Below are positions 2,434 to 63,050 of a stretch of 64,000 bases of DNA, piece after piece. The notes below the pieces were generated by a model, which did no database searches, was not told where the DNA came from, and saw nothing but the letters and a program-made list of their open reading frames with translations. The first letter of the stretch is position 1, and the number at the start of each line of letters is the position of its first letter. The stretch spans positions 6,758,001 through 6,822,000 of the forward strand of contig CM035357.1 in NCBI GenBank assembly GCA_020137815.1, in the 5' to 3' direction. The position numbers were made by a program, and so were the translations under genes. This DNA is from Hormiphora californensis (lineage: Eukaryota; Animalia; Ctenophora).

Positions 2434-5400
2434 GTACAAGCCGGTTGCTAAACACTCTGCAATCCTCTTCTTCTGTCTCTCCGATCTGGCTAATATTGAA
2501 CCCATGTACCAGTACTCCCTTGTTTGGTTCATGCACCTCTTTGTTACCTCCATTGAACAGAGCGCAAAGACTGATGTTCTGGAGGATCGGTTGGCCAATC
2601 TGAATGAACATTTCCTGAAAAATATCTTCCGGAATGTTTGCAGGTATGTTTTATTTGCTGTCTCCTCCCCGGGGATTAAATTGAGTGGGTGAACTTCCCC
2701 TGACAAAATGGTGTTATCAATGTTTGATGACCCACTGTGCTATTTGTCCATTAATTTAACCCCAAGTGACCCGGTAAAAGTATATTTGTCACTAATTACA
2801 CTAATTAATTAATTACACTAATTACATGATTTCAGATCTTTGTTTGAAAAGGATAAATTGCTCTTCTCCGTTCTCCTTACGATCACCATCGCCATACACA
2901 AGGGAGAGATAGACAATGCTGTCTGGAGGTATGCAAATTATTATATTTATGGGCCATTATTTGGGTCTTTCCAATTAATCCCCATCTGTCGATACCTGAA
3001 TCGATATCGAATCCAGTTTACAATAACCCATTAATTCCAGGTTCCTTCTGACGGGTGGAGTTGGTATAGCTGACACAACGACTCCCAACCCCTACCCCGA
3101 GTGGCTAACTGACAAGTCCTGGCAGGAACTTCTCTTTGCAAGCCAGCTTCCCTCCCTTGCGGGTCTCACCTCACCACTAGACCCTGGTTTTGAAGCTCCC
3201 TATAACAGTCCCGAGCCGTTCCTGTGTGATCTACCGGGGAAATGGAATTATCTTGGCGGATTGGATAGGCTGGTAGTTTTAAGGTGTCTGAGACCTGATA
3301 AGGTATGTGTCTGTCATGTGTTTTTCTCGTGTTTTTAGTTCTATGCAGCTGTCAAATTAAAAGGACATTTCCTCTAAATTATAGAAGCAGTTCAACAAAT
3401 CTCATATTCCCTCTCTAGATGGTTCCAGCAATGCAGAACTACGTAACAGAGAAGCTAGGCCAATACTTCGTTGAGCCCCCCACATTCGACCTCGCATCCT
3501 GCTATGAGGACTCCTCCTGCATTACTCCCCTTATCTTTGTCCTGTCCCCTGGTGCAGATCCCATGGCAAATCTCCTGAAACTAGCCAGTGAACATGAAAT
3601 GGTGGGGGACACGGCACCCCAGGCCATCTCCCTGGGCCAAGGACAGGGCCCCATTGCCGAGAAGATGATACAAAATGCTATCATAGCGGGCACCTGGGTG
3701 ATCCTACAGAATTGCCATCTTGCTACATCGTGGATGCCAACTCTAGAGAAGATTTGTGAGGAAACCCTGATCCCAGATAAACCACACCCAACGTTCAGAA
3801 TGTGGCTCACTAGTTACCCCTCGGATACTTTCCCAGTTGCGATCCTTCAGAATGGTATTAAAATGACGAACGAACCACCGAAGGGGCTGCGAGCTAATCT
3901 CCTAAGAAGTTACCTGAATGATCCGATCACTAATGTTGATTTCTATACCGGGTGTTCCAAACCGTCCCCCTGGCAGAAACTCCTCTTCTCCCTGTGTTTC
4001 TTCCATGCTAACGTGCAGGAAAGAAGGAAGTTTGGGCCTCTCGGATGGAATATTCCTTATGAGTTCAATGACTCTGATCTGCACATCAGCATGCAACAGG
4101 TAATTATATAATAGGGGGGGGGGGCAATTATAGATTGGTTATTGTGTCACTGTGTCAATTAGATAGCTAGGATTTGGTAATGAATTTTCACTTCAACGCG
4201 ATCGTAATAGGGGTGACTTCGTAACGTAAAACTAGGATACAGTGAAACATATTGTTATGGGGGACTATACAGATAACTAGCACACTGCTATAATTATGTC
4301 CCCTTTTAGTTACGAATGTTCCTGGATGACTACGATGAAATGCCGTTTGATGCTCTCCAATACCTAATCGGGGAATGTAACTACGGAGGGAGAGTAACGG
4401 ATGATCACGATAGACGGCTTCTGATTGCCATTCTTCTCAACTACCTAAACGGGAACACCATTGCTCAGGAGAACTACCCCCTGGCTCCGGGATCTGAGTA
4501 TTTTGTTCCCGCTGATGCTCATCAACTTGATGACTATATTGGTTACATCAGGTGCGTAATGATCGTCAATGTCAAGAATTCTGGAAGATCTCTGATGATC
4601 CCTATACCTCCTTTCCCCAAGGTCCCTACCCATTATTCCTAAACCCCGTTCCCCCAGGTCCCTACCCATGATTCCTAAACCCCTTTCCCCCAGGTCCCTA
4701 CCCATGATTCCTAAACCGGCAGTATTTGGCCTCCACGAGAATGCTGATATTACTAAGGACCAACAGGAGACCCTGAACCTCTTCTCCAATATTCTTCTTA
4801 CCCTACCAAAACAAAGTGCTGCAGGTAAGAGTCACTAAATCATGGCCACAAATTAGGGGATTAGCAGGTTAGAGTTTAGACTCACTAAATCAGCAGGTTA
4901 GAAATTATGGGGGGGGGGGCAAGGCCAAAAAAAGCCAAACCCGCCCTGAAATCCGGGTCTGATCTGGCTTTTTTTGGCTTTTTTTGATCTGGCTTTTTTT
5001 GGCTTTTTTTGATCTGGCTTTTTTTGGCTTTTTTTGATCTGGCCTTTTTTGATCTGGCTTTTTTTGGCTTTTATTGGCCTTTTTTGGCTTTTTTTGGCTT
5101 TTTTTGATCTGGCTTTTTTTAATTTAGCAGTTTTGATCTGGCTTTTATTGGCTTTTTTTGATCTGGCTTTTTTTGATCTGGCTTTTTTTGGCTTTTTTTG
5201 ATCTGGCTTTTTTTGGCTTTTTTTGATCTGGCTTTTTTTGGCTTTTTTTGATCTGGCTTTTTTATATCAAACTTTTTTCGGTATGAAAATTTTTTCCCTA
5301 TCGATATAAAATGGTAAAACTAGATCAAAGAAGCCATTTTAAAGTGTTTTTAATGTCAAACAGACCATATAATGTCAGAATTACATGCCAAAATGACCAA

Positions 5401-61400: not shown

Positions 61401-63050
61401 ATGTTCTAACCCTCCCTTTAAATTTGTGCGGGGCGCCCGAAACACAGTCTAGCCAGGCAACTGGTAAACGGAGGTGTGGCTGTGGTGGTGTAGTATCTCG
61501 GCTCAATAGTTAGTTTGAGTAGGTACCTATCCACCACTACTGTAGTGACATGAGATATAGAATTACCTAAAACTACACTACTGTTATAATAGTGTAGTGT
61601 AGATTACAATGCTATTGATTAACCGAAGTATCTGCAATTGACCACCACGTACGTCTTAATTAAAACTGTCTATATCTCTCTGTATGTTCCAAGTTTAACC
61701 CCTCAAATCGTGTTGTAACCCCAAATGTAACCCCAAATGTAACCCCTATGTATATTATGTAACCCCGCTCCTCCTCCCTTCTAGTCGTGTTGGAACCCCA
61801 GATGGTGGAACTAGTTAAGGAACCTGGAGATGAACTGGGAATCAGAATCATGAGCTCTCACAGAGAACACGGTGTTAAAGTTCTCAACTTGGTACGTCAC
61901 CTCACCTCACCTCACCTCACCTCACCTCACCTCACCTCACCTCACCTCACACAATGTAACAATTTGATTTGTTTTTAAAACTTGTTTTACAATTCCCACT
62001 ACATACACAGCAGACTAAGTTGATTAATTACTTTTAATGAAACAACAGCCTGAGTTAATTATTTATTTTGAAACACTATCCCACAGATTGAGGGAAGTAT
62101 CGCCTCTAAGAGTGATAAAATTAGACAAAATGATCGATTACTTAGCATCAACGGGGTATCTCTTATTAACGTGTCACAACAAAATGCAGCAGACATAATA
62201 AAGGTAATTAATTAATTAGCAAATATGAGTTTGTCTAAAAAAGACTCCTCTCTGCACCGTTGAGTAGTGTACAGACATGAGTAAATTCATTCCTTACATA
62301 TGAAAAGTTCACCTCCCTTCCCTCCAGAGACAGACGGGCATGATAAAGTTCCTGGTACAACGAAACATTTGCCCCTCGGACGGCTGCAAGCTCCTCTCAC
62401 CCTACCTGACCTCTTTGGTATCCTTTAAACCTGCCCTGATACAGCTGGAAACCTCTCTCCACACTACCACTGCGACCCTGACCTTTGAAGCAGTAAGTTT
62501 AGCTAAACAATATCTGGTTTACTGCCCTTTAGTTGCTAATATCATGAATATAATCTTGTGCTTACCACCATTGTCTAACATGTCTCCAATATGTCTCTAA
62601 CATATCTCTAACATGTCTCTCTAACATGTTTCAACTCCCAACACAGGATGCCCACGACCTGTTAGGTTTCTCTGTTGCGGGTGGTATGGGCAGTATTCTG
62701 GGTGATATTCCTGTTTTTGTAATTCATGTTAACGAGAATTCAAATGCTCACACTGCTGGAGTCAAGGTGAGTGTTTTAATATAGTGGCATCTTCATCTTT
62801 CCATCTGACCATCTCCCCTATAATTTCACACCGCATTTTATTTCTGTGAGGGCTCGGTAGATCAAAAATTTCTCTGTTCTGTTTCCAATCTCCTCGATTT
62901 CTCTGTGTTTCACCACTCACAATATACCTCTCTCTCTCCCAGGTAGGTGATATGATACTACGAATCAACACCCAGTCAATACAGGAACAGTCAACACAGA
63001 GTGTCCTAGCGCTGCTTAAAAACCTAAACGCAGACCAACTTACCCTCAAG
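52429..63050 (+). CDS. LNX-like RING, zinc-finger and multi-PDZ E3 ubiquitin ligase; continues past the window
   Basis: CVECYEEHEDENHIFQYAEEVPEEYNCTICLHPLQQPMDTPCGHTFCAVC resembles the LNX1/2 N-terminus; at least three PDZ domains. Exons about 52429-52494, 55178-55284, 55383-55480 (one extra T near 55441), 55680-55760, 58352-58450, 58729-58803, 59051-59169, 59836-59968, 61785-61891, 62088-62203, 62328-62417 (uncertain), 62647-62766, 62943-63050. Confidence 0.85.
53028..54483. mobile_element. Non-coding repeat element with many TGCAAGGGCA motifs (possibly Helentron-like), lying between duplicated segments
   Basis: Short IR ACCCGAAG / CTTCGGGT near the ends; internal direct and inverted GCAAGGGC repeats. 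Confidence 0.45.
54567..55165 (+). repeat. 23-bp minisatellite abutting the LNX RING-exon acceptor
   Basis: ATGCTCTCCCAGACCCCCTCTCA, about 25 copies. Confidence 0.95.
55868..58184. mobile_element. Palindromic MITE (TAG termini) with about 470-bp arms, interrupted by Kolobok-like copy 2
   Basis: TAGGCCAGTCA ... TGACTGGCCTA; arms about 55900-56343 and 57720-58160 are reverse complements. Confidence 0.85.
56344..57645. mobile_element. 1.3-kb palindromic Kolobok/T2-type MITE, copy 2 (spacer in opposite orientation to copy 1)
   Basis: Near-identical to 6999-8301; TTAA on the left and TTTAA on the right. Confidence 0.9.
60136..61061. mobile_element. Mariner-type non-autonomous element
   Basis: TIR TTAGGTTGTCCAAGAAATAATGTCG / CGACATTATTTCCTGGACAACCTAA with TA TSD. 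Confidence 0.85.

What the first reader, a model, noticed from the sequence alone, without database searches (positions are those of the whole stretch)
4611..62650. Splice-junction echoes: tandem duplications repeatedly sit on exon boundaries
Seen in several genes. Donor echoes: 4821-4900 (GCAGGT[A/T]AGA x3), 58791-58860. Acceptor echoes: 4611-4717, 8790-8870 (degenerate), 21561-21600 (TTTCAGATTT x2), 30575-30750 (minus-strand TTTCAG|AGCTTTGT x2), 46190-46300 (CAG|GTCC-like x3-4). Arrays ending at acceptors: 14800-14950, 29103-29250, 54567-55165, 58190-58350, 61725-61770, 62575-62630. (GTTT)n begins at the 59170 donor. Inference: junction-biased duplication, or a spliceosome that tolerates decoys by using the exon-proximal site, driving intron growth.
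Basis: partly seen in the sequence, partly recalled or inferred. Interest (0 to 1): 0.7.

Follow-up and report, generated by a model that had tools for sequence, protein, structure and literature searches.

The report
Comb-jelly exon-edge tandem repeats ("mirages")
In this stretch of what is likely comb-jelly DNA, short duplications that straddle exon borders are real but no commoner than random placement predicts, while repeats ending just before splice acceptors are about three times too common; they resemble the "mirage" repeats known from lancelets and are likely tolerated by-products of frequent local DNA duplication.

Summary
The observation mostly holds. Of 14 listed sites, 12 are real local repeats at hand-annotated junctions (53 introns, 8 genes). 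8790-8870 is at chance level; 46190-46300 is a repeat at an unverified acceptor.

The interpretation splits. Junction-spanning duplications far exceed chance similarity (4 of 106 junctions versus 0-0.6), but are not enriched over placement (4 observed, 4.2-5.1 expected). Arrays lying wholly in introns do hug acceptors (TRF: 7 of 14 within 25 nt, 2.0 expected, P=0.0006). LNX supplies half of the events; without it, the either-end excess gives P=0.09. Duplications add about 2 of 31 kb of intron, so they do not drive intron growth here.

Junction-spanning repeats are known: lancelet "mirages" and the human F7 minisatellite. The scan found the same pattern earlier in other windows of this genome.

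Added here: a 37-bp x4 array over the dynein stop codon, an edge without splicing. All four copies encode the same peptide (5 of 5 internal differences silent, P=0.004). Some decoy acceptors are in frame and stop-free, so decay could not remove their products. Decoy use in RNA is untested.

The parts
2434..9579 (+). Axonemal dynein heavy chain (DNAH3-like), last 11 exons; host gene
2382..2435 (+).
   Evidence: score 10
2790..2826 (+). 9-bp x4 branch-point-like array ending 9 nt before acceptor 2835
4610..4717 (+). 36-bp x3 acceptor mirage; AGs at 4621, 4657 and 4693 are all in frame and stop-free; homology favours 4693
4821..4902 (+). Degenerate donor echo (GT at 4825 real; 4868 and 4897 decoys)
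8790..8862 (+). 8-nt acceptor match; chance not excluded
9537..9689 (+). 37-bp x4 array over the DNAH3 stop codon; every copy encodes the same 12 residues plus stop; internal differences all silent
13195..18617 (+). WD40 gene (DAW1-like; name recalled), 10 exons; host gene
14809..14945 (+). ~40-bp degenerate array ending 7 nt before acceptor 14952
19358..29489 (+). PIG-K/GPI8 GPI transamidase, 8 exons; host gene
21561..21600 (+). 10-nt acceptor echo, lag 27; the upstream AG scores higher but leads to a stop
27137..27156 (+). 9-bp x2 repeat 21 nt before acceptor 27177
27275..27301 (+).
   Evidence: joint seen in a relative's RNA
29103..29252 (+). 32-bp x4 array of pyrimidine tract plus AG ending at acceptor 29257; two decoys in frame and stop-free
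29790..33979 (-). Matrix metalloprotease (M10) with Sushi and ShK-like cysteine domains (ShK label recalled), 10 exons; host gene
30574..30749 (-). ~109-bp old duplication including acceptor 30582 and 8 exon nt; decoy AG 30691 is out of frame
46190..46298 (+). Degenerate 3-4 unit repeat ending at AG 46294; acceptor status unverified
52429..63050 (+). LNX-like RING-PDZ ligase, 13 exons annotated (may continue past 63051); host gene
54566..55165 (+). 23-bp x25 array of branch-point-like motif, pyrimidine tract and AG, ending 12 nt before acceptor 55177; 25 of 26 upstream AGs outscore the annotated one, 9 are in frame and stop-free
55481..55532 (+).
58193..58349 (+). Degenerate ~64-bp repeat ending 2 nt before acceptor 58351
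58792..58863 (+). 34-bp x2 donor mirage, 12 exon nt; identical decoy donor at 58838 is out of frame
59170..59237 (+). (GTTT)n microsatellite starting at donor 59170
61708..61804 (+). 20-nt copy of the next exon's start (AG lost; 1 silent and 1 nonsense difference), then a 12-bp array
61897..61950 (+). (TCACC)n microsatellite 5 nt after donor 61892
62574..62629 (+). 11-bp x4-5 branch-point-like array ending 17 nt before acceptor 62646

Best explanation
Short tandem duplications are common throughout the non-coding DNA of this window and likely arise by slippage or unequal exchange at short imperfect direct repeats; selection likely removes those that disrupt coding sequence, so the ones left at exon edges are survivors that splicing would skip by using the exon-proximal site.

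Shown: duplication density is 2.0 per kb in transposon-free intron, 1.5 in other non-annotated DNA and 0.36 in exons (all four in frame). Junction-spanning events match random placement. Arrays abut acceptors about 3-4 times more than expected. Imperfect direct repeats flank several units.

Inferred: the acceptor excess comes from the C-rich, low-complexity 3' zone plus longer persistence next to sequence that cannot be deleted. Arrays then turn over by unequal crossing-over, which can bring working-allele sequence into dead copies and would explain the silent differences. Exon-proximal choice is inferred from protein colinearity and from F7 and lancelet data.
For: Density by class. Spanning events 4 vs 4.2-5.1 expected. 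Echoes at 4.6% of junctions vs 3.7-13% of intron controls and 0.1% of exon interiors.

A coding edge without splicing, the DNAH3 stop, carries the same kind of array. Its junction hexamers rebuild Asp-stop each time, which is a direct survivor signature. An imperfect 8-nt direct repeat (7 of 8 match) flanks the 4610 unit.

Homologs carry no insertion at DNAH3 4693 or PIG-K 29257. Lancelet mirages do not disturb splicing (PMC3087553, PMC3902484, passages). F7 pseudo-donors stay silent (PMC1557585, abstract).
Against: The acceptor excess (P 0.0001-0.011 at <=25 nt; P<=0.002 with TRF) is larger than the measured excess of short repeats in the 3' zone (5.3 vs 4.1-4.2 4-mer pairs, P=0.06), so composition alone does not explain it.

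With my detector 4-5 events start within 5 nt of a donor against 0.3-0.9 expected, though TRF shows only 1 vs 0.5. Silent-only divergence in the stop array (5 of 5, P=0.004) is not predicted by plain decay of dead copies. No RNA or second allele of this species was laid.
Confidence: 0.6

Rival explanations
1. Allele-edge model. In a highly polymorphic genome, repair or recombination between homologs starts in the conserved exon and fails where alleles diverge (intron or UTR edge). Re-annealing there would create duplications at exon edges whose copies come from other working alleles. Splicing plays no causal part.
For: Stop-codon array at a non-splice edge with 5 of 5 silent differences. Pooled 6 of 8 exon-derived differences are silent (binomial P=0.03 for transitions). 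The one DNAH3 missense is to Ile, the commonest homolog residue (35 of 73 matched homologs, Met 0 of 73; 47 of 120 did not match the pattern). Excess of events at intron ends. A related ctenophore is 3.2% heterozygous with indel-rich introns (PMC8527503, section 36). The lead came from earlier notes e1-10582703 and e1-10417509.
Against: Spanning events, which this model should favour, are not in excess. The excess is acceptor-sided with TRF. The LNX 61708 copy carries a nonsense change. Only 1 clear stop-codon array among 11 ORF ends checked, plus one weak hit at an uncertain end.
Confidence: 0.2
2. Selection keeps duplicated branch-point and pyrimidine-tract modules because they strengthen or tune the 3' splice site, or give alternative in-frame acceptors.
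For: The excess is acceptor-sided. Three arrays are made of branch-point-like TAAC/CTAA units (2790, 61714, 62574). CTAA occurs in 19 of 53 3' zones vs 8 of 53 5' zones. In-frame stop-free decoys exist at 4621/4657, 29137/29233 and 9 LNX sites.
Against: Acceptors next to arrays are not uniformly weak (4.4-15.9, median of all 8.4). Units are unrelated to each other and some arrays are 97-100% identical, so young. Homologs lack the insertions.
Confidence: 0.07
3. Assembly artefact: alleles or noisy reads stacked head to tail during assembly.
For: The assembly has flaws: two frameshifts in LNX exons, one relative to P0121, homopolymer-rich patches at 24652-24900 and 42380-42800, and a 179-bp 99% direct repeat around 53029-54481. 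Stacked alleles would also differ at silent sites.
Against: The four stop-array copies are four distinct haplotypes with two junction types. Several echoes are old and diverged (30574, 4821, 14809). Microhomology flanks units.
Confidence: 0.08
4. A splicing-linked process (R-loops, reverse-transcribed lariat ends) targets duplication to splice junctions.
For: Several units start flush with the donor GT (27275, 55481, 59170) or end at the acceptor AG.
Against: No excess of spanning events. A stop codon shows the same array. No intron shows the duplicated-flank signature of recent intron gain (best 19 of 40 matches, mean 12.4).
Confidence: 0.05

Closest known systems
Amphioxus 'mirage' minisatellites (Adh3, globins BflGb6/BflGb9, troponin C, PGBD5); PMC3087553 (passages seen), PMC3902484 (one passage seen)
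   Same: Tandem units of 10-160 bp spanning 5' or 3' exon-intron boundaries, many keeping AG/GT; several genes per genome; splicing reported undisturbed.
   Different: Here many arrays stop at the splice site with no exon bases or hold only branch-point-like units, and one covers a stop codon. The passages I saw report no placement test. Length polymorphism and normal splicing were not tested here.
Human F7 IVS7 37-bp VNTR; PMC1557585 (abstract and outline seen)
   Same: The first unit spans the exon-intron boundary and identical pseudo-donors follow, as at 58792-58863.
   Different: Upstream-most donor choice was shown experimentally for F7 donors. That result does not cover acceptor arrays, which dominate here.
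Internal tandem repeats at exon-intron boundaries of human segmental-duplication genes; PMC2812944 (outline and section 6 seen)
   Same: Variable tandem repeats occurring at exon-intron boundaries.
   Different: Those change gene structure between paralogs; no structural change is shown here.
[quoted passage not shown]
   Same: Duplication of AG|GT-containing sequence.
   Different: There a new intron is created. Here existing introns are lengthened, and none of the 53 introns shows the signature.

Membership tests
Mirage minisatellites | Tandem repeat whose unit spans an exon-intron boundary | tested here: met
   4 of 106 junctions have copies with >=8 exon nt vs 0-0.6 in swaps; arrays with no exon bases do not meet this feature
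Mirage minisatellites | Unit length about 10-160 bp, both 5' and 3' boundaries affected | tested here: met
   lags 34, 36, 77, 109; one donor and three acceptors
Mirage minisatellites | Many copies keep AG/GT cryptic sites | tested here: met
   decoy scores within the range of real sites at 4621, 4657, 30691, 58838; lost in the 61708 copy
Mirage minisatellites | Normal splicing at the authentic site | tested here: inconclusive
   protein colinearity only; the one RNA run is a ~88% relative and covers no spanning echo
Mirage minisatellites | Copy-number polymorphism between haplotypes | not testable with these tools
   no genome held, no holder run listed, pattern scan empty
Rogers-type intron gain by duplication | Intron ends resemble the flanking exon ends | tested here: not met
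   best 19 of 40 matches, mean 12.4, over 53 introns

The most novel reading that the evidence does not exclude
In this highly polymorphic comb jelly, duplications are generated preferentially where allele similarity ends (splice acceptors, donors and stop codons alike), and the dead copies are refreshed from working alleles. The arrays would then be an in-genome record of coding polymorphism. Separately, the spliceosome would have to pick the last of up to 26 higher-scoring, partly in-frame acceptors without help from nonsense-mediated decay.
Probability: 0.2. Interest if true: 0.6.

Novelty: new member of a known kind. Interest (0 to 1): 0.33.

Why it matters
Mostly ordinary: a known repeat class in another lineage. 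Two points are worth keeping. The placement test separates junction-spanning copies (not enriched) from acceptor-abutting arrays (enriched about 3-4 fold). This, with the stop-codon array as a no-splicing control, makes the mutation-versus-survival question testable genome-wide. Also, LNX intron 1 (25 units, 9 in-frame stop-free decoy AGs) is a ready natural substrate for asking how a 3' splice site is chosen among identical modules, the acceptor counterpart of the F7 donor experiment.

Tried and rejected
No whole genome is held, so no genome-wide test. No RNA holder was listed. Run X1 proved to be a ~88% relative and covered only two exon pieces in 26850-38900, neither at a spanning echo. A pattern scan of metagenome contigs for the stop array found 0 matches. 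A homolog search with an LNX exon found none, and LNX exon 1 had no PDB match, so the exon 1-2 joint is not homology-verified.

The gapped anchored donor test gave scores of 8-9 at lags 8-10 that are self-alignment artefacts; I ignored them. Per-base coverage profiles are dominated by a few long arrays and were not used for inference.

Thresholds (10, 11, 12), windows (5-40 nt) and masks were varied after seeing the data. With the overhang-allowing null at threshold 10, W=15 and transposons excluded, the acceptor excess is not significant (9 vs 6.3, P=0.15), and the donor side is never significant under that null. About 8 of 90 events at threshold 11 are expected false positives. Events that were more than half microsatellite, and events outside the 53 paired introns, were dropped before the placement counts. 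Genes in 34000-45800 could not be annotated and were left out.

Rejected: 8790-8870 as a proven echo; duplication as the main source of intron length; recent intron gain by duplication. Seven literature searches listed no paper on this pattern in ctenophores or on acceptor-side enrichment. The library is incomplete and I opened no supplements.
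Full report
Setting. No genome is held, so all statistics are for this 64-kb window. It is gene-dense animal DNA with short introns (median 192 nt) and nested genes. A 99%-identical protein carries an 'sb' model number, a style I recall from Pleurobrachia, and earlier scan notes on this genome say comb jelly. I did not test the taxon by phylogeny.

Annotation. I annotated eight genes by hand from three-frame reads: a nested F5/8-type lectin, DNAH3-like dynein, a DAW1-like WD40 gene with a nested pentraxin-like gene, PIG-K, a matrix metalloprotease, BAG6 and an LNX-like RING-PDZ gene (Pfam; LNX2 best PDB hit). 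This gives 53 GT-AG introns. Six genes splice to open frames, LNX has two within-exon frameshifts, and the lectin donor was corrected by one base. DNAH3 exons are colinear with two ~81% homologs. A relative's RNA contig confirms PIG-K joints 22047>27178 and 27274>28415.

Noticed in passing
window 14578-14682, 52657-52748, 59332-59517: Three long (CT)n tracts start 171, 162 and 162 nt after a donor; unexplained, n=3 of 9 intronic microsatellites.
   Followed up: no
window 52850-53028 and 54482-54659: 179-bp, 99.4% direct repeat flanking a 1.45-kb insert, including the start of the 23-bp LNX array; insertion with a long duplication, or an assembly join.
   Followed up: partly
window 5840-8312, 55795-58175, 63141-64000: Related palindromic (fold-back) transposon-like elements with long internal inverted repeats in DNAH3 and LNX introns.
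   Followed up: no
window 372-1555 (-), 15880-16984 (+), 19973-21209 (-): Nested intronic genes: F5/8-type lectin upstream of the first annotated DNAH3 exon, pentraxin-like gene in DAW1 on the same strand, rhodopsin-family GPCR in PIG-K.
   Followed up: partly
window 55383-55480, 58352-58450, about 46345: Frameshifts inside two LNX exons and one relative to protein P0121; with homopolymer-rich patches at 24652-24900 and 42380-42800 they point to assembly errors.
   Followed up: partly
window 17540-17557 and 28689-28706: An identical 18-mer forms a DAW1 donor region and a PIG-K acceptor region; probably chance.
   Followed up: no
window 4630-4700 and 46200-46235: The DNAH3 array and the 46190 repeat share two short motifs in the same order, though one is exon-derived; likely convergence on branch-point and AG|GT-like sequence.
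   Followed up: no
window 43703-44323: 24-bp x26 repeat in open frames after an acceptor-like site; possibly a coding 8-residue repeat; no Pfam match.
   Followed up: no
window 19267-19312: 31-bp duplication 44 nt before an AG that sits two bases upstream of the PIG-K ATG (possible 5'-UTR or trans-splice acceptor); not counted.
   Followed up: no
window 46331-47413: Orphan membrane-protein-like gene with only 10 homologs listed and no Pfam family.
   Followed up: partly
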